From the human T2T-CHM13v2.0 reference genome, Homo sapiens: a stretch of 64,000 bases of DNA. The stretch is taken from the NCBI RefSeq assembly GCF_009914755.1, contig NC_060940.1. One strand, written 5' to 3'. The translations under genes and the position numbers were made by a program. The notes beneath the pieces were generated by a model. The model had not been told where the DNA came from. It ran no database searches and saw only the letters and a list, made by a program, of their open reading frames with translations. Below, in pieces: positions 6,040 to 43,522 of this stretch (position 1 is its first letter; every line of letters starts with the position of its first letter).

Positions 6040-6401
6040 TCATATGGTTTGGCTGTGTCCCCACCCAAATCTCATCTTGAATTGTAGCCTCCCATAATTC
6101 CCACGTGTCATGGGAGGGGCCTGGGGGAAGGCAATTGAATCATGTGGGTGGGTCTTTCCCATGCTGTTCTCATGATAGTGACTAAGTCTCACAAGATCTG
6201 ATGGTTTTATAAAGGGGAGTTCCCCTGCACACTCTCTCACCTGCTGCCATGTAAGACATGACTTTGCCATTTATTCGCCTTCTATCATGATTGTGAGGCC
6301 TCCCCAGCCATGCAGAACTGTGAGTCAATTAAACCTCTTTCCTTTATAATTACCCAGGCTTGGGTATGTCTTCATTAGCAGTGTGAAAACAGACTAATAC
6401 A
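6040..6401 (+). mobile_element. THE1 (THE1B-like) solo LTR
   Basis: 362 bp, tcatatggtttggctgtgtccccacccaaatctc...cagactaataca. Near-TSD gggcc/ggccc. Confidence 0.92.
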
Positions 6402-7368
6402 GGCCCTTTCCCAGAAAGGAAGGGAAATAAAGCCAGCAAGCACATACCTTGGAGGCATCTTATTAAAAGATGTTTGTTTTGTTTTTAAAGCTTCACACTA
6501 TAAAGTTAAAATAAAGCCCCTCAGCAAAAAATACACAAGGCTGCCCAACCATACAGTTTGGGAAGCAAATTCCCCATCCTGGCAAGAAAGCCTTCCCCTT
6601 ACAAAATGTATCCAATCCTTGGCTCGGGCCTCTCCAGATTTTCTATTTATCGAGGGCGGCATTTATATTCCCTGGTGCACTGAGCACCAGCCATAGTGGA
6701 GGACTGGAATCACCTGCCAAGGCCTGAATTTCCCCAGCTTCCCCCTGACGGTTTCCATGGCAAACACTTACACCTCTCATTTTATATGTAGGATTTAGGC
6801 CAACCCAAGGGCTCTTGCAAATGTTTTTTCTGACCCCACTGGTGTTGTTCCTCTTTTCCTCTTATATATCAGTGGGTTTTATTTTAATTTCGAGGCTTAC
6901 AATTACATTGCAGCTGTGCTGGGATTGTCTGTCTGTTAGCACGTGGTTTAGCAGCCAGCAGCAGCCAAAATTCCTCATCCTTGTTCCTTTCAACAGGGAA
7001 GGATCGCAGCCTTGGTGAGGACTGTAATGAGGCACAGGAGAATTTACCCTCAAACTAAATCCTTCCTCTTTGATCTCAGCCTTTTTGACTGTGCATTTGG
7101 CTGCTGAATACTGCTTTGATCCTTCTGCCGAAAGCCACCAAAGATTTTCCATGTCCTCTCCTCTGTTTATAGAATGAAACAAACTTCATCCTCTGGCAGG
7201 CCAGGGCAGCCGGCAGCAGGGGATGAGAAATGCGAACATTTACTCTAATGATGACTGCATTTGAGGAGGCTGTGATCCATGGAGCATGGAATGGGTAGCA
7301 GAAATTTTCTTATGTGACAACTTCTGTCCAGTTTGGTCAAGTCCCAAGGATGGCCATCCCCACTCTCC

Positions 7369-7457
7369 CCCCACAAGTTATTACAATCCCCACAAGTTAT
7401 TACTCATCCCCACAAGTTATTACAATCATTAACTTGTAGGCACCTAATAACATAGCT
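7369..7457 (+). repeat. Triplicated ~19-20 bp junction plus 44-bp exact copy of 8967-9010
   Basis: ccccacaagttattac occurs three times. 7414-7457 equals 8967-9010 at 44/44. Confidence 0.95.
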
Positions 7458-8439
7458 CCAGTGGGAAGAGATGGTGCAGTGTCTTCACTGTTTACCACTT
7501 CCTAACCATCAGGACTGACATCCTAAGGACCTGCCCGTGGGAGGGATGTGGGAGAGGAGACCACTTTGGATTCTTCTCCATGTCCTGACCTACATCCTGT
7601 GAAATCATTGTTTATTTAAATTCTTCCCCAGAAGATACTCAGGATGGAGTAGTTATTCACGGCATCATTTGCAGCTGTCAGAGTCCTGAACCCAGGGAAT
7701 TTTGAAGGAAACTCAGAAGACACAAAAGTGCAGTCCCTGTCAGATATAATCTTATGCCTCTTGATTTATATATAGGAAGACATGGGGGGCATCATCCGAA
7801 TTTCTGTCTCACAGCTGTTGCTTGAGATGCCACCATTGGTGACTCCTTCCTTACAACACATGTGCCTGGAGAAGGATGTGGGGTAGTGAAGCTCAAGACC
7901 CTTAGATGAGGGGATGAGTTTGCCAGACTGGAGAAGCCAGGTCAATATGGAAATAGGAGAGATCAGAAGAAAGATAGGAGAGAGAGAGGAAAGAAAGACA
8001 GACAGTATAACGAAGAAGGGCAACAAAAACAAACTGCACACTTTATAATTCTGATGGGGGAATGGCCATTTCACCTCTACTAGGCATCAGTCTGAAATGA
8101 GATCCTTTTGGTTACAGAGTTCTAGACCAGGACTCGTTAGTCTAAAGGGATGCAGAGAAAAAAAAAAAGACACAGCTCATACATCCAAAGATACTGCCTT
8201 TGAGTTGGTGAGAAACAGGGCACTCCTGGTATGATGCTCACCAGTGCACCTGTGTGCAGGTGTCAACACGCTTTCTACACCAGACTATGAGATCCAAGGG
8301 GGCAGGAGCCATAACTGCCTCATAAAAGGACATGCCTAGCACAGTGCATGAAACCAGAAAGAGGTTCAAACAATATTTGTTTTTAACAAACTAGTTAATG
8401 AAGAAAAAAAGAAACAAAGGAATTGAGTACAGAATATTG

Positions 8440-8620
8440 TCACTGTGCAGTGATTTGGGGCAAGATATATGAGTTCTGGTCTTGTTTCTGCCATTATGAG
8501 TATTTTTGAGTGAGGAGACCTAGGCAAGTCACACCAACCTCTCTGGTCTTCAGTTTTCTCACTTGTAAAAAGGGGATTATCATTTTCCCAATCCACAGGG
8601 ATATAATGGCAGTCCAACTG
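8440..8620 (+). mobile_element. MIR SINE
   Basis: gacctaggcaagtcac...cagttttctcacttgtaaaaaggggattat. Confidence 0.65.
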
Positions 8621-8959
8621 CTTAGTAAGCTCTCAGAGACTAATAAGGAAGAAATAAGAGAAATAGTAAAAATAAAAGACAGTGAGGGAGAAGCACTGCT
8701 GAGCAGTGTTATCAGGTGGGCTTCTCTGCAATTTTACTCTCTCAGCAGTTTGAGATCTTACTGGAGTCTTTCTAGCTCAGATCCTCTTTACAGACCTTTT
8801 ACATCAGAAATTGCAAGACCTGGAAAATTAACTGGCTTAAAGCCATCAAAGAAATTGTCTAGTTGAGAGGGATTTAGATTGCAACTCTTCCCCTATGGTA
8901 CAAAGCCCTGTGTTGTAAGGGGGGAAAAGGGAAATATTTACAACCAGATGGGGAAAACG

Positions 8960-9090
8960 TTGCAAGAAGTTATTACAATCATTAACTTGTAGGCACCTAA
9001 TAACATAGCTTCAAAATACATAAAGCAAAGACTAACAGAAAAATAAGGAGAAATAGAAAACCGTATACTCACAGTGAGATGATTTTAACA
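8960..9090 (+). mobile_element. Isolated L1M ORF2 endonuclease-region fragment
   Basis: gcacctaataacatagcttcaaaatacataaagcaaa...ggagaaataga corresponds to the L1 APN..ASKYIKQ segment. No poly(A). Confidence 0.75.
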
Positions 9091-9589
9091 ACACAGCCCC
9101 TGCTAAATAGGGAAATCAGACTACACTTGGATGCTCCAGAGAAAGATTTTTCACGTCTGGGACTGAGGAAAATAAAAATAAAATGAGGAAAAGGAGATTC
9201 CTGGAATTTAATTTATCTGTAGAGATGAAGAATTGGCATGATCACGAAAGAGACCCAGTTCAACTCACTGTGGTTTCACCGGGATTTGGGGCCAAAGCCA
9301 AGGCTAGAAATGAAATATAATTGTGCTTGTGTTCTTTCTCTGTGAATCTCTTTCTACCTGCCCCTGTCAGGAAGGAGTACCAGGATGGGGGCAGAACTGA
9401 ACTTAAGTGTAGAAATAGCCAGGATTTGATAGCAGAGGGAAAGAGAATTTGTGACTTCATAGAAAGTCTGAGAAGGCCAAAGGAAGGCAGATCATAAGCC
9501 ACCAACTATAGATTCACTCCGAGATCCTAATTCCTCCACTCCTGGACCCCTCAGGGTCAAATCTCTACTACTATTACCACCACCTGACC

Positions 9590-9770
9590 AGTGATTACAC
9601 AGGCACTGCATAAATATGTTATACTCGTTGTCTCTCTTAATCTTCACAAAACCTATTTCAAATGGGAAGTTTTTAATACTAGTTCCATTATAGAAAAAAG
9701 GAAACAAGCTCAGAAAAATTCAGTGATTTACCTATAGTAGCACAGCTAATAAGTGACAAAGTAAATCGTA
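9590..9770 (-). mobile_element. MIR SINE
   Basis: ttaatcttcacaaaacctat...ccattatagaaaaaaggaaacaagctcaga. Confidence 0.6.
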
Positions 9771-10103
9771 AGTGGAGGAAATAGACCCACCTGGCACAGC
9801 ATAATGGCACCAGACACTCATCTTTCTAGTCTCAGGTCGGGCCTCCCCTTACCACAAGCCAGGGGTCAGCACCCCATGTTTCTAATCCATACCTCCCCCT
9901 ACATCAGTCTAGAAGACTGCAAGCAACACAGAGTGTCAACTTCTCTTGTTCTGTCCTGGATGCCCAACTCCTAGTGCTATGTCTCACCCAAAGAGAGTAT
10001 CAGGATATTTTTATTAAATTGAATTGAATAGATTGACAAAAATCATCCAAAATCTACCACACCCAAGCTCTATCCATGCAAGTGGAGGCACATGGCTACT
10101 TGA

Positions 10104-10687
<584 letters not shown>

Positions 10688-11110: not shown

Positions 11111-11899
11111 CCCCAGGGACCTGCAGCCTCAAACTGGACAAGCAGTACATCCTAAGGAGTCTGTTACAGACGATCAACTCTGGTGTCCCTCCAAGGTGCA
11201 CACATTCCCTGGTAACCAGAAAGACACTTAGGCTTAAACAAGACAACGTCTGACTGAGATTGTCCCTGTTTCCTGGTGAGAGCATTTGAGGAGACGGGTG
11301 TTGATTGATGCGGTTTGTAATAATACTCATTTTTCTGCAATTACTCCTTGAATTCCAGCCAAAGTGGGCCACACGGAGCTGCAGCTGTACGAGATGTCTG
11401 GATTCTCCCAGTCAGCAAAGAGTTGGGAACAGGGTGGTCACAGAGGAGCCAAGCCAGGGCAGAAAGATGTCTCCATTCAGTGAATACTTATTGAATCCTT
11501 GCTCTGCACCAGATCTTGAAGGGAGGGAGGAAAAAGCCTTGAAGCTGACAATGTAGTTCCTTCATGTCAATTAAATGTTTATTTAAAAGAGTGCAAAAAT
11601 AGAAAAAGGGTGGTTTCTTCCTTTGAGGGAAGCCACGGGCACGTGAATGAACACCAGCATTATGATGTGCTGGGTACCAGAATTGGAGTGTGCTGGGGAG
11701 TCCCAAGAGAGGGGCTTCCCAGGGGAGCTGGAGAAGACTTTTCAGAAGAGATATTTTTAAGACAGACCTTGCAGGCAGGTCTTATGCACCTGCTCAGAAG
11801 GTAGGTAAGAAGCTGAGAGGTAGACAGGAGGACCACCTTGGCTAAAAGCTGCGAGTCCTGAGCCAGCATGGTGTGCTTGAGGCACAGCAAGAAGTTCTG

Positions 11900-16463: not shown

Positions 16464-17503
16464 AGAACTTGAATAATACTCACCCATTTATTGTGCTCCA
16501 AAATATGCCAAAACAAAGGTGCATGTCTTTCATGTGCTGCTTTGTTTAATTCTCACAACACAACAGAAGTGTTACTACTACTGTTTGCAGATAAAGAGAT
16601 GAAGGCACTGAGAATTTCAGTATCCTACCTGAAGTATCATATGAGCAAACCCAGATCTGGCTTATGGGTTTTCTATTCTGCGCTTATTCTGTTTTTTATT
16701 CCCATAAATGTATTTTATCTGGTGCAGTATCCCTACTTGGAAGGTGACAGAAAGGTGGGGCCAGGAAAGGGAAGAGACTGACCCAACTCACATAGAGAGC
16801 AAAACGCAGAACTGGGCCAGAATCCAGGGTCCTGGCCACTGACCTGCTGCTTTGTCTATGAAGCCTCCTCTGAGCCAGCTACCTCCAAACAGCTCCTGCC
16901 CAGACCCAGACCAGTGCCTATGGGGCTGCCAGGGAGAGGGATGTGTATTCTTTGGTCTAGTTGAATTCAGAGCCCCCATCTTAGACCACAGTTGCATCTG
17001 AAGTTTCTAAATAGAAAATCTACCAAGCAAGGTGACAGTGATGGCCCAGTGTCCCTTGTTACCTGTGCAGCATCCAATGCTGTCAGCTCACAGGCCTTGT
17101 ATCAACTCCCCGCCCCTCCCAGAAGTAGAGGAACATGTATTCTCATGGGCCTGACTGTCGGCATGCAGGCATCAGACAGGGAAGCAGGATTGGGCCACCA
17201 GGGTCCCCAGATCCTCCATGAAGTCATCTTCTCGCTGTCGTCAGTGTCAGTTGCCTAGCAACTGCCTTTGGCAGATGGTGGCACTGAGTGCATGCCAGTC
17301 TCTCCCATGGCTAAAAATACATTCCGACGACAACAGGTCTATTTTAAAAGATACAATGCGCTCCCAGCGTCTTTCCTTGTCTGTGAGGAGCTGTGCTGTG
17401 CCGGGTCTCTCTGGGCTTCTGATTTTGTCTGCTAGGGTGGAAGGGAGCATTCGAGGAAAAAAACAAAGGCCAGGCACCAAGGGGGTGCTCAGAAAGTTGT
17501 CAT

Positions 17504-17690
17504 GGAGGAGAAGGAGGAGGAGGACGAGGAGGAGGAATAGGAAAAGGAGGCAGAGGAGGAAGAGAAAGAGGAGAAGGAGAATGAGATGGATGAGGACATG
17601 GAGGAGGAGGAGAAGGAGGAAGACAAGGAGGAGGAGGAAGAGGAGGAAGAGAAGGAGCAGGGAAAAGACCAGGAGGAGGGAGAAGAAATA
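17504..17690. repeat. (GGA)n/(GAA)n purine-rich simple repeat
   Basis: About 185 bp, almost entirely A/G on the plus strand. Confidence 0.95.
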
Positions 17691-28000: not shown

Positions 28001-31000
28001 AAAAATTTATTGAAAAAAATGAAAATGAAAATACAACATAACTATATATGGGATACAGCAAAAGTAGTAATAAGAGAGGAGTTTATAGCAGTAAACACTT
28101 ATATTTAAAAAGTAGAAAGACTTTAAAGAAACAACCTAATGCACTTCAAGCAATTAGAAAAGCAAGAAAAAAAACAAAATTAATAGAAGAAAGAAATAAT
28201 AAAGATCAGAGCAGAAATAAATGAAATTCAGACGAAATAAAATTACAGATTAACAAAATGAAAAGTTACTTTTTTAAGAAGATAAAATAACAGATCTTTA
28301 GCTAAACTAAGAAAAAAAGAGAGACAACTCACATAAATAAAATCAGAAATGAAAAAGGAGACATAACAACTGAGACTACAGAAATACAAAAAGATTATAA
28401 GAAACTAGTATGAACAACTATACTCCAACAAATTGGAAAACCTAGAAGAAATGGATAAATGTCTGGACACATACAACCTATCAAGATTGAACTATGAAGA
28501 AATACAGAATCTCAATAAACCAATAATAAATAATGAGATCAAAGCCATAATAAAATGTCTCCCAACAAAGTAAAGCCCAGGACCTGATAGCTTCACTGAT
28601 GAATTCTATCCAACATTTAAAGAAGTAATAAGAATTTTTCTCAAACTCTTCAAAAAAATTGAAGAGGACAGGACACTTCCAAACTCATTCTATGAGGCCA
28701 GCATTATCCAGATATGAAAATCAAATACGGACACAATGAAAAAAGAAAACTACAGGCCATATCACTGAAGAACTTAGATGCACAAATCCTCAACAAAATA
28801 CTAGCACAAAATACATCACATTAACAGAAACAAGAACTAAAACCACTTGCTTATCTCAATAGATGTCAAAAAAGCATTTGATAAAATTCAACATCCCTTT
28901 ATGATAAAAACCCTCATCAAACTGGGTATAGAAGGAACATGCTCAAAATAATACATGCCTTATATGACGAACTCACAGTTAAGTTCATACTGAATGGGAA
29001 ACAATTAAAGGCCTTTTCCCTAAGATCTGGAATAAGACAAGTATGCCCACTTTCACCGCTTTTATTCAGTATAGTACTGAAAGCCCTGGCCGGAGTAATT
29101 AGGCAAGAGAAAGAAATAAAGGGCATTCCAACTGGAAAGAAAGAAGTCAAATTATCCTTATTCACAGATGACATGGTCTTATACTCAGGAAAACCTAAAG
29201 AATACACACACAAAAAAAACTGTTAGAATTGATAAACAAATTCAATAAATTTGCAGGATACAAAATCAACATACAAAAATCAGTAGCAATTAAATATGCC
29301 AATAGCAAACAATATGAAAAAGAGATCAAGAAAGCAATCCCATTTACATTAGCTACAAAGAATATAAAATACCTAGTAATCAATTTAACCAAATAAGTGA
29401 AAAATCTATACAGAAAACTATAAAACACTAATGAAAGAAATTGAAGCTGACACACACACACAAAGAAATATATTCCATGCTCATGGATTTAAAAAATTAA
29501 TATTGTTAAAATGACCATACTACCCAAAGCAATTTATAGATTCAATGCAATCCCTATCAAAATACCAATGATATTCTTTACAGAAATAGAAAAAAAATTC
29601 TGAAATGTATATGGAATCACAAAAGACCCTTAATAGCCAAAGCAATCCTGAGCAAAAAGAACAAAGCTGGAGGCATCATACTACCTGACTTCAAAATTTA
29701 TTTCAAAGCAATTGTAACTAAATCAGCGTGCTACTGGCATAAGAATAGACACATAGACCAATGAAACAGAGTAGAGAACACAGATATAAATTAAACACAT
29801 TTAAAGGACAATAAATGATGCTGGGAAAACTGGATATCTACATGCAGAAGAATGAAACTAGACCCCTATCTCTTACCATACACAAAAATCTAAACAAAAT
29901 GGATGAAAGACTTAAATCTAAGACCTGAAACTTTGAAACTACTAGAAGAAAACATTGGATAAACGCCACAGGACATTGGTCTGGGCAAAGATTTTTTGTA
30001 TAAGACCTCAAAAGCACAGGCAACCAAAGCAAAGATAGACAAATAGGATTAGATTAAGTTAAAAAGCTTCTGCACAGCAAAAGAAATGATCAACAAAGTG
30101 AAGAGACAACCCACAGAATGAGAAAATATTTGTAAACTCTCAACCGACAACAGATTAATAATCAGAATATATAAGGAACTCAAACAACTCAATAGCAAAT
30201 AAACAATCCAAATAAAAATGGGCAAATGATCTGAGTAGACATTTCCAAAAGAAGACATACAAATGGCCAACAAGTATATGAAAAACAATGTTCAACATCA
30301 CTAATCATCAGAGAAATGCAAATCAAAACAACAATGAGATACCATCTCACCCCAGTTAAAGTGGTTTTTATCAAAAAGACAGGAAAAAACGGATGCTGGC
30401 AAGAGTGCAGAAAACGGAGAACCCTCGTACACTGTTGATGAAAATGTAAATTAGCACAGCCATTATGGAGAACAGTTTGGAGTTTCCTCAGAAAACTAAA
30501 AATAGAAGCACCATATGATTCAGCAATTCAACTACTGGGTATATGTCCAAAACAAAGCAAATCAATATGTCAAAAAAAATCTCTGCATTCCCATATTTAT
30601 TGCAGCACTACTCACAATAGTCAAAATATGGAATCAACCTAACTGCTCAACAGTGGATAAATGGATAAAGAAAATGTGATATATACACACAATGAAATAT
30701 CTTTCAGCCATAAGAATGAAATCTTCTCATTTGCAGCAACATGGACAGAACTGGAGGTCATGATGTCAAGTGAAATAATCCAAGCACAGAAAGACAAATA
30801 TCACATGTTAAATGGGACTTAATCAAACTAAAAAGCTTCTGCACAGCAGAAGAAATAATCAACAGAGTAAATAGACAACCTACAGAATAGGAGAAAATAT
30901 TTCCAAACTATACACCTGACAAGGGACTAATATCTAGAACCTACAAGGAACTTAAACAAATAACTCTTCTGTGGGAGATAAAAAAGACAGGTAAGGGTAG

Positions 31001-32043: not shown

Positions 32044-33664
<1,621 letters not shown>

Positions 33665-36927: not shown

Positions 36928-37415
36928 TGCCATGGAGTTAATGTTTGGCCCCTCTGAAACTCATGTTGAAACCCAATCACCAATGTCGCATTATGAAGAG
37001 GTGGGACTTTTAAGACCCTCATTGGGTCATGAGGGCTATGCCTTCATAAATGGATTAATTCACTCAAGGATTAATGGATAAATGGATTGATGGGTTATCA
37101 GAGGACTGGGTTGGTTATCACAAGAGTGTGTCTATTATAAAAGCCAGTTTTGTTTTGACCAGGAAGTGCCATGTGTCACTTCTCTTCACAGCTCATTGGC
37201 CAGAACCAGTCACACATGCAATTGCTATCCATGTGATGCCCTGTGCCACCTCAGGACTCTGCAGAGAGTCTCCACCAGCAAGAAGGCCCTCACCAGATGC
37301 AACCCCTTGATTTTGAACTTCCCAACCTCCAAAACTGAAAGAAATAAATTTGTTTTCTTTATAAATTGCCCAGTCTCAGGTATTCAGTTGTAGCAACAGA
37401 AAACAGACTAAGACA
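36928..37415 (+). mobile_element. MSTD/MLT1A-like MaLR solo LTR carrying a 64-bp foreign insert
   Basis: tgccatggagttaatgt...aaactcatgttgaaac...gactctgcagagagtc...cagactaagaca. Confidence 0.85.
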
Positions 37416-38490
37416 CTGGGGGTACAATGATGAATACAGGTCTCTGTTCTTGTGGAGTTTACTGTCAGTGGATGAGACAAAGAGTAAATATGTTAGTTAG
37501 TTAGTTGCTTACTTCATTTGTTCATTCATTAAATGATAGATTGTTATTAGTGTTTAAAATAAATAGTGTGTGATGACAGAAAATAATGGGGGGGGGAGGG
37601 TGGGCAACTCTGGATAGAGTCATCAGGGAGTCCTCTCTGAGAAGGGTGAGATCTAACCTGAGACCTGAAGGATAGGAAGGAGCCAGCCATGAGACCAACC
37701 AGGCAGAGGAAATGCACAGGCAAAGACCCTGCAAAAAGAAAGAGCTTGTTGAGTCTGAGGCAGAGTAAGCAGCTCAGTGAGCTAGGGGCTGATGAGATGA
37801 GGTTCAAGAGGGAGGCAGGAGCCAGATTACACAGCAACTCAGTGATAAGTGCAACAGGAAGCCATTGAAGAACTCTGATCTGGCTGCTGCGTAAAGAATG
37901 AATTTGGGGGATACAAAGGTAGGAGTAGGGACATTAATTAGGTGACTATTCCACAAAATTTGGCAATGATGATGGAAGTTCAGACTAGGGTAGCAGGAGG
38001 GAGAAGAAAAATTGTGTGAAGATAAATCTGATATCTCAGTAGTTAAGTAACACTCAATACATACAGAGTTTATTTTTTGCCCACATGAGAGTCCAGTGTG
38101 AATTGGGAAGTCCTTCATCTTGCAGCTCTACCATTTGGAATACATGGCCTTCAAGGCCTATCAGGGAAAGAGAGAGATGAAGGAGGCACGTCATGGGTTC
38201 TTAACTGTTTTGACCAGGAAGTGTCATGTGTCACTTCTCTTCACAGCTCATTGGCCAGAACCAGTCACATGACTCCATTCTAACTGCAAAGGAGAATGGG
38301 AAATGGCGGGGAGGACATGGGATATCTCATAAGCACTTTCTGATGGAAATGGACTTACTCAAGATACCCTTTCGAGGTAGAAGTGATCTGACTTGTTGAT
38401 AGATCAGATGTAGGGATTTGGGATAGTAGTGATAAAGAAATGGGAAGAGTAAGGGATAATTCCCAGATTTCCCTCATTAGCAATTGGGTG
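37416..38490 (-). mobile_element. L2a fragment containing an MLT1J/K-like LTR piece (~38040-38340)
   Basis: cagggagtcctctctgagaagggtgagatctaacctgagacctgaagg is L2. gtcacttctcttcacagctcattggccagaaccagtcacatg...taactgcaaagg is MLT1. Confidence 0.7.
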
Positions 38491-42050: not shown

Positions 42051-43522
42051 GATACATGATACTATCACGAAGAGCAGAGTAAGACAAATACCACAAGAAA
42101 AGAAAGCAGAGAGGGTAGTTCTCTCACCTGGGATTTCCGTATGTGCTTTGCCTACCTGGAGAACTTAACATGTCCTTCAAGACCCACCTCAAGATCTGTG
42201 CATTTTAGTAAAGCCTTCTCTAACCCCTTCCCCCAGCAGAGCTGTCTCCACCCTTTGTTGGCCCCTCCTGCTGAGACATAGCATTGGCCCAACCCCAATC
42301 ACCTTGCATGATGACTGCTTCCATATCTGCCTCCCTCGCTGGGCCATGAACTCTCCTGGAGGGCAGGGACAGATTGTGCTTCAAGGCCTTCTCAGCACCA
42401 ACCCTTGTTGATGATAAAGCAGTGAGGCAGGCTTACCTAAAGGCCTCCATCCTGAAGTGACATGTGACTTCCACTCACATTCCATTGCCCGCAGCAAGTG
42501 GCATGCTTCTGGTTGCGTTCTACACCTCACACTTTGCCTGGTGAAATTCAGCTATGCCAAAACAAAACCAAAAAAAACATGGGGATGGGGACTGCCAGTT
42601 GGCTGAGTGACAAACAGGTGGCGGATGGCCAAGCCAAGTGGGCATATCATACTCACAACTGGGACGCCTGCAAAGAGGCACTTCTGGAAATGTAGGAAAG
42701 TTGTGAGTCTGGATGGTGTGGGCTATGGTGGAAGCCTTTGGGACACAGAAGGAGCCCACGCACCTTCTTCATAATTCTTCTCTTTATGTTAATTATCAGC
42801 CTGACCTTGGACAGGGCCCTTTCCCAAAAGGGTCCTCTTTCTCTCCATTGGCAAAATATTGGGCTACAAGCTTACTGTCTTGTGGTTGTAAGATTCCATG
42901 CTCTTGACAACCATGCCAGGCACCTGCCTCATCTATGTGCCAAAAATGTTATCTACCCCCTAGTTTGGGATCCTGAGAAATTTTAGCAAAATTTGCCAAA
43001 TACTATAGAGAAATAGATACTTTTCCTTTCCCATTTTTAAAAATCATCTTTTTTTCTACCCACAACAATTTTCTCCTCCTCGAATACTGAGTTCCACGAG
43101 TGAATAAGCTATGTCATCTCTAAGTTTCCAGAAATGTAGATTCCATGGATCGAGGGAAAGAAGGGATGAACCATCTTTTCCCTTTCGTCACAGGAAGCTG
43201 CAGCACATTTCCAAAGTAAGATGGGCTTCTAATTATTAAAAATAAACTCTGGCCCACAGCCTGATTTGCACATTAATGTAGCCAGCAGATGCAGACTTGC
43301 AAACATGCTCTCTGGCTCCATACTGAGACCCAGCTTCTCTGCCCATTTTTCATGCTGAGATTCTCTAAGGACAACCATTTCTGTTTGGAGAACCATGAAA
43401 TCAGCTAATTGCTCTCTCAAGGAAGGGGATGCTGCCCTAGGGCTTAAGGGGGCAATGGTTCCCTAGATTCTGACTAAGGAACTTAAGGAAGATGAAAGGA
43501 AACTTAAGATATGTAGATATGT

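What the first reader, a model, noticed from the sequence alone, without database searches (positions are those of the whole stretch)
7351..7460. Young templated insertion with a three-round stuttered junction
Seen: 44 bp identical to part of an ancient L1 fragment 1553 bp downstream. It is preceded by two abortive starts (aagttattacaatc-cccac, aagttattactcatc-cccac). Each abortive start rejoins the left-flank sequence catccccac (7355-7363) through an atc microhomology. Inference: iterative prime-extend-release synthesis of the polymerase theta type. Perfect identity within otherwise heavily decayed L1 suggests a recent, possibly polymorphic event.
Basis: partly seen in the sequence, partly recalled or inferred. 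Interest (0 to 1): 0.7.

Follow-up and report, generated by a model that had tools for sequence, protein, structure and literature searches.

The report
DNA-repair patch copied from nearby LINE-1
A 44-base piece of a dead LINE-1 element is copied exactly 1.5 kb upstream, with a stuttered seam; it is likely an ordinary scar of DNA-break repair, and its age is not shown to be recent.

Summary
The feature is real. 7414-7457 equals 8967-9010 (44/44, same strand, 1553 apart), and a genome search finds only these two places. The donor is a decayed LINE-1 ORF2 endonuclease fragment. The copy shares five donor states that are rare in 18 other copies (best 36/44), so it was copied from 8967. Three corrections follow. 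(1) The stutter needs only one donor visit: it parses from 7355-7388 alone with microhomologies 3,6,2,1,6, against 0,3,0,0,0 for three visits. (2) The left junction completes an 8-bp inverted repeat with the donor's own hairpin (P 0.004; about 0.03 after allowing for kinds and junctions), which suggests fold-back synthesis. (3) 44/44 bounds the age only to under about 5-7% divergence; the chance of a polymorphism-scale age is about 10%. A second local copy (64 bp, 1055 apart) lies in the same window. This fits the published class of repair-mediated duplications. Polymerase theta is plausible but untested. No primate or population allele was seen.

The parts
7414..7457 (+). 44-bp copy of the donor tract (47 bp with one mismatch if taken to 7460)
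7375..7393 (+). stutter unit 1: 14 nt equal to the start of the copy, then 5 nt of left flank after a 3-nt ATC microhomology
7394..7413 (+). stutter unit 2: 10 nt equal to the start of the copy, then flank-derived bases (7364-7365, then 7356-7363 in the local parse)
7355..7374 (+). C-rich left flank with two CCCCAC words (7358-7363, 7369-7374) that likely served as templates for the stutter; minus strand is G-rich (G4Hunter -1.84, top 0.2% of window). May itself be partly inserted; the true left breakpoint is not known
7348..7359 (.). perfect 12-bp palindrome just left of the junction; possible fold-back product or chance (P about 0.04)
7412..7437 (.). 8-bp inverted repeat (7412-7419 / 7430-7437) spanning the flank-copy junction; the same left arm recurs at 7373-7380 and 7392-7399
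7454..7460 (+). right junction: 6 of 7 bases agree with donor 9007-9013; possible hidden microhomology
8963..9090 (+). donor: decayed LINE-1 ORF2 endonuclease fragment (residues about 106-143), with in-frame stops
8967..9010 (+). copied tract within the donor; its 5' end is the outer end of a 6-bp hairpin stem (8967-8972 / 8983-8988)

Best explanation
An 83-bp tract (7375-7457) holds an exact 44-bp copy of a decayed LINE-1 fragment 1.55 kb downstream plus a 39-bp stutter, and it is likely the scar of one germline double-strand-break repair, likely finished by polymerase-theta-type end joining. Shown: the copy, its direction, the lack of a target-site duplication or poly(A), and that the stutter can be built wholly from 7355-7388. 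Inferred steps: (1) one broken end invaded the nearby donor once, perhaps through the imperfect match at the right junction, and copied 44 nt; (2) at the edge of the donor's 6-bp hairpin the new strand folded back and added 2 nt that match the left flank's end, which made the microhomology for an otherwise blunt junction; (3) the two ends annealed, extended, released and re-annealed several times on a 34-nt stretch (microhomologies 3,6,2,1,6) before ligation. The direction of synthesis cannot be read from the product. The tract is likely neutral: it lies inside CES5A, in no listed exon, and about 35 kb from the nearest RefSeq element (hub annotation). Its age lies somewhere within about 5-7% sequence divergence.
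For: Direction: L1 homology runs past both ends of the tract at 8967 but not at 7414. The copy shares donor states found in only 1, 2, 2, 4 and 4 of 18 other copies (positions 8970, 8974, 8981, 8983, 8992), and those 18 match the tract at 29-36/44. No target-site duplication or poly(A): the longest words shared by the two flanks are 5 nt and away from the junctions, and the longest A run is 2. The local parse has microhomology at 5 of 5 switches, the three-visit parse at 1 of 5. The 16-nt junction is identical in all three units, as expected if it formed once and was copied. Junction-spanning 8-bp inverted repeat: P 0.0036-0.0039 in 20,000 random joins each, and 8967 is the only one of 121 donor start points that reaches 7 or more. 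A second same-strand local copy in the window has paralogues that lack it. A published class of this kind exists (PMC2671141, search listing only).
Against: No empty allele was seen, so true breakpoints, deleted bases and hidden microhomologies are unknown; neither flank has a detectable paralogue. The inverted-repeat test was post hoc: allowing direct or inverted repeats within 30 nt gives P 0.015 per junction, about 0.03 for two. The right junction has no such repeat (best 3 nt). Two of the five microhomologies in the local parse are only 1-2 nt, and the parse was chosen by hand. Polymerase theta templates are usually within tens of bases of the break (recalled); 1.55 kb is far. Nothing in the sequence names the enzyme.
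Confidence: 0.55

Rival explanations
1. Replication-fork template switching (FoSTeS/MMBIR): a stalled nascent strand jumped 1.55 kb ahead to the donor and slipped repeatedly before resuming, with no two-ended break and no polymerase theta.
For: Same-strand donor at kilobase distance in both local events. G-rich minus strand at the left junction could stall a fork (G4Hunter -1.84). Germline and cancer templated insertions linked to MMBIR are in print (PMC8421209, search listing).
Against: The junction at 7374 is on the far side of the G-rich tract from where a plus-strand polymerase would stall (inference). The very short extensions (2-14 nt) with 1-6 nt microhomology are more typical of a low-processivity end-joining polymerase (recalled).
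Confidence: 0.2
2. Two-stage origin: a clean 44-bp insertion first, then later slippage duplications of the 19-20-nt junction unit, with later mutation in the middle unit.
For: A plain duplication of 7370-7388 gives unit 1 with 1-nt microhomology. The array is a normal 19 x 3.1 tandem repeat.
Against: It needs the matches of both joins to 7355-7363 to be chance (roughly 1 in 64, my estimate) and two further changes in unit 2 while the other copied sites stayed unchanged.
Confidence: 0.12
3. One reading: three independent prime-extend-release rounds on the distant donor.
For: All three units begin with donor sequence (14, 10 and 44 nt). A primer ending in the flank's last bases could pair with donor 8989-8993 on the opposite strand each time (fold).
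Against: Microhomology 0 at 4 of 5 switches and an untemplated base; it needs the same base-exact junction to form three times.
Confidence: 0.1
4. Assembly artefact.
For: Reads were not examined.
Against: The tract is 83 bp between single-copy flanks, far shorter than a long read. Unit 2 is not a copy of any other single place.
Confidence: 0.02

Closest known systems
Repair-mediated duplications (Pace et al. 2009, PMC2671141; seen as search listing with start of abstract and term counts)
   Same: Short piece of proximal chromosomal DNA duplicated at a presumed break (title and abstract start). A transposable-element fragment as donor, sizes of tens to about 200 bp and distances of about 1-5 kb are recalled, not read here.
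   Different: Here the acceptor is single-copy DNA, not an interrupted repeat, and the junction carries a three-unit stutter and a fold-back repeat. Whether that paper lists this locus, or the second event at 37151, was not seen.
'Nearby doublets' (Thomas et al. 2004, short paired duplications; recalled. One search lists 5 papers that hold the phrase, not the paper itself)
   Same: Exact 25-100-bp pair, same strand, about 1 kb apart (recalled definition). I recall that most kb-spaced doublets are shared with chimpanzee.
   Different: Spacing of 1553 bp is somewhat above the recalled peak; doublets were described as leaving flanks largely untouched, whereas this one has 39 bp of stutter.
SD-MMEJ / polymerase theta templated insertions (PMC2943611, PMC5728401, PMC7165422, PMC5068794; search listings)
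   Same: New microhomology made by limited synthesis at a secondary structure (abstract starts of PMC5728401 and PMC9303309); short local templated pieces with 1-6-nt microhomology.
   Different: The main patch comes from 1.55 kb away; enzyme dependence cannot be tested on a germline event of the past.
Class 2 templated sequence insertion polymorphisms (PMC5110952; parts 1-2 of 4 of the text read)
   Same: No target-site duplication, no poly(A), end-joining features; partial LINE-1 pieces occur among donors.
   Different: Those donors are distant genomic regions and the events are polymorphic; here the donor is adjacent and polymorphism is not shown.

Membership tests
Repair-mediated duplication / nearby doublet | Short, near-identical copy of a proximal chromosomal segment | tested here: met
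   44/44, 1553 bp apart, same strand, no third place found
Repair-mediated duplication / nearby doublet | Donor embedded in a longer element, acceptor sharply bounded | tested here: met
   L1 homology 8963-9090 at donor; 28% flank identity on both sides at acceptor
Repair-mediated duplication / nearby doublet | No retrotransposition hallmarks | tested here: met
   no target-site duplication at the junctions, longest A run 2
Repair-mediated duplication / nearby doublet | Empty site in orthologues or paralogues | not testable with these tools
   no primate genomes held; no paralogue of either flank found
SD-MMEJ / TMEJ junction | Repeat motif spanning the junction, partner within about 30 nt (criterion recalled) | tested here: met
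   left junction 8-bp inverted, P 0.004-0.015; right junction not met, best 3 nt
SD-MMEJ / TMEJ junction | Insert templated from sequence within tens of bases of the break | tested here: inconclusive
   met for the 39-bp stutter, not for the 44-bp patch (1.55 kb)
SD-MMEJ / TMEJ junction | Dependence on POLQ | not testable with these tools
   needs genetics
TSIP class 1 | Target-site duplication of 5 bp or more, poly(A), T-rich endonuclease site | tested here: not met
   definition read; longest A and T runs are 2, no junction duplication
TSIP class 2 | Template from a distant genomic region | tested here: not met
   donor is 1.55 kb away; definition
TSIP class 2 | Polymorphic among humans | tested here: inconclusive
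   no row for this place in the supplements searched, which are partly cut and may hold no full variant list
LINE-1 ORF2 fragment (donor) | Similarity to ORF2p endonuclease and to dispersed copies | tested here: met

The most novel reading that the evidence does not exclude
Kilobase-range repair-mediated duplications in the primate germline are captured and terminated by polymerase theta, with the copy's end set by a hairpin in the donor that makes its own microhomology. This locus would be a complete, base-resolved record of that, and the two same-polarity events 30 kb apart would mark a region of recurrent breakage.
Probability: 0.15. Interest if true: 0.5.

Novelty: new member of a known kind. 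Interest (0 to 1): 0.27.

Why it matters
As a single locus it matters little: it is likely a neutral intronic scar of a described class. Its value is as a readable example. It joins a kilobase-distant capture to a fold-back junction and a stutter typical of end joining, which would link repair-mediated duplications to polymerase theta. That link can be tested genome-wide by asking whether the ends of such copies fall on donor hairpins more often than chance.

Tried and rejected
Paralogue for an empty site: searches with 7050-7750, 7150-7374, 7458-7740 and 7340-7480 gave only self and the donor; 6300-10350 was swamped by a repeat at its first 100 bases. Independent L1 insertion at 7414: rejected by shared rare states. 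Variant tables: PMC12350158, 3 supplement files searched for CHM13 and approximate GRCh38 coordinates, one file cut, one unrelated numeric hit and no row for this place. PMC12058530, its one file is a picture PDF and was not searched. PMC6749001, 12 of 14 files searched, two cut; only unrelated numeric hits and two large macaque CES5A rows. GRCh38 positions rested on recalled gene coordinates. Three further papers were not held under the recalled ids tried. No paper held CES5A, insertion and structural variant together. These blanks say nothing about polymorphism. Hairpin at the modelled empty site: -8.7 kcal/mol, reached by 4% of random 60-mers and 13% of shuffles; not significant. Recombination-hotspot motif (recalled 13-mer): two one-mismatch sites at 7358-7372, but 110 in the window; rejected as uninformative. 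Rfam on 7000-9300: 0 matches. An inverted source for unit 2 at 7219-7227 (9 nt) is possible but not needed.

Full report
Observation. The sequence at 7375-7457 (83 bp) has three units that each start with the same bases. The last runs 44 nt identical to 8967-9010, on the same strand and 1553 bp away. Extended to 7460 it is 46/47. Tandem Repeats Finder calls 7369-7427 a 19-nt unit x 3.1. Chance gives about 5e-17 such pairs in the window. Searches of the whole genome returned only this site and the donor, with the caveat that the tool skips very common words.

Donor and direction. Frame 1 of the donor region reads as a broken protein with stops. Read with X at the stops, all 9 PDB matches at E<=1 cover residues 106-143 of the LINE-1 ORF2p endonuclease or its equivalents (7 so named; best E 0.009). 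A genome search with 8880-9130 found 362 candidates and scored 40; most match within 8963-9090 at about 70-85%. I aligned 18 of these: the 20 fetched loci minus the donor and the acceptor, so they are biased towards similarity. They match the 44-nt tract at 29-36/44. The acceptor carries the donor's state at five positions where only 1, 2, 2, 4 and 4 of 18 copies do, and its similarity stops at both ends of the tract while the other copies continue. So the tract was copied from 8967 after that element had decayed. There is no target-site duplication and no poly(A), so it is not a retrotransposition product by the class 1 criteria read in PMC5110952.

The stutter. A parse that visits the donor once and then uses only 7355-7388 has 3,6,2,1,6 and no untemplated base. 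It uses the two CCCCAC words of the flank (7358-7363, 7369-7374) as slip points. The 16-nt junction is identical in all three units, as expected if it formed once and was copied. In a resected break, 7355-7388 would be one single-stranded 3' tail on which the other end anneals, extends and releases (inference). I chose this parse by hand, and two of its microhomologies are only 1-2 nt.

The left junction. Donor and flank share no direct microhomology there. But 7373-7380, which spans the junction by 2 nt, is the exact reverse complement of donor 8983-8990. The copy begins at the outer end of a 6-bp hairpin stem in the donor, and the flank's last two bases extend that stem to 8 bp. Such a repeat of 8 or more arose in 0.36-0.39% of 20,000 random joins per null, and 8967 is the only one of 121 donor start points that reaches 7 or more. 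With AT-rich tracts the rate is 0.13%. Allowing direct or inverted repeats within 30 nt it is 1.5% per junction, about 3% for two junctions. The test was post hoc and the right junction shows nothing (best 3 nt). This is the pattern of new microhomology made at a secondary structure, as described in the abstract starts of PMC5728401 and PMC9303309 (search listing). I treat it as modest support for fold-back synthesis.

Age. P(no difference in 44 sites) is 0.59 at 1.2% divergence, 0.25 at 3.1% and 0.05 at 6.5% (these are recalled human-chimpanzee, -orangutan and -macaque values). With a flat prior the 95% upper bound is 5.3-6.8% divergence. The chance of being below 1.2% is 0.41-0.49, or 0.16 if the copy is 47 bp with one later change. 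The chance of being below 0.2%, roughly the range of polymorphism, is 0.08-0.11. No orthologue, read or variant record was seen. The supplement searches were incomplete and decide nothing. Neither flank has a detectable paralogue.

How ordinary. I surveyed 178,642 held bases: the window and 37 loci of about 3 kb, chosen by earlier repeat searches; 5 loci overlapping the window were dropped. Of 15 exact matches of 24 nt or more, 1 was sharply bounded on both sides: this one. Of 102 BLAST self-matches, 2 were 35-200 bp, at least 93% identical and 100-10,000 bp apart, both in the window. The second is 37151-37214 = 38206-38269 (63/64, 1055 apart, same strand, donor again downstream). Its host is a dispersed repeat. 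In six copies whose matches end at query 201 and resume at 280-285, the gap is 20-27 bases against 78-83 here, and a copy at about 35.5 kb shows a 54-column gap. Two further copies aligned across the whole span at 70-72%, one of them not shorter. Its donor lies in an older repeat with homology beyond both ends. One independent event in this small sample suggests such copies are common; the short loci limit detection, so no rate is claimed.

Context and function. By the hub's annotation the site is inside CES5A, in no listed exon, with the nearest RefSeq enhancer at 43126. Rfam finds nothing at 7000-9300. The minus strand of the left flank is G-rich (G4Hunter -1.84, top 0.2% of the window), and a 12-bp palindrome sits at 7348-7359 (P about 0.04). 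Either could relate to the break, or 7354-7374 could itself be part of the insert. The hotspot-motif and empty-site-hairpin ideas were rejected.

Comparison with what is known. The title and abstract start of PMC2671141 describe duplication by capture of proximal chromosomal DNA during break repair as a force in vertebrate genomes (listing only). The tested features of that class are met; the empty-site test could not be run. The junction works like SD-MMEJ/TMEJ (listings), but POLQ dependence is untestable and the main donor is far. MMBIR remains a rival (PMC8421209, listing). One search for CES5A with insertion and structural variant found 0 papers; that does not show the locus is undescribed.

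Verdict. Real feature; new member of a known kind; mechanism likely break repair with one donor capture, a fold-back join and local stutter (0.55); youth and polymorphism not shown. Interest 0.27.

Noticed in passing
window 37151-37214 and 38206-38269: Second local same-strand copy: 64 bp, 63/64 identical, donor 1055 bp downstream. It interrupts a dispersed LTR-like repeat (MST/MaLR type by recall, not from a call) whose other copies lack about 54 bp here; the donor sits in an older repeat. Short junction repeats of 5-6 nt are not significant.
   Followed up: partly
window 11130-11158: Two short matches to the flanks of the insertion lie within 30 bp of each other: 11 nt inverted to 7325-7335 and 12 nt direct to 7518-7529. 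Probably chance.
   Followed up: no
L033 (G000:C11:13039411-13039456): Another L1 copy matches donor 8984-9029 at 98% over 46 bp but differs strongly on both sides (34/44 over the copied tract); likely a conserved patch.
   Followed up: partly
L011 2528-2797: Tandem duplication of about 140 bp at 90% identity.
   Followed up: no
window 30809-30961 and 32287-32438: 153-bp same-strand repeat, 88% identical, 1478 bp apart, near masked repeats; may be two L1 pieces or an older local duplication.
   Followed up: no
window 17496-17646: Cluster of 9 matches to a recalled 13-mer hotspot motif on the minus strand, 3 of them exact; likely a purine-rich simple repeat.
   Followed up: no
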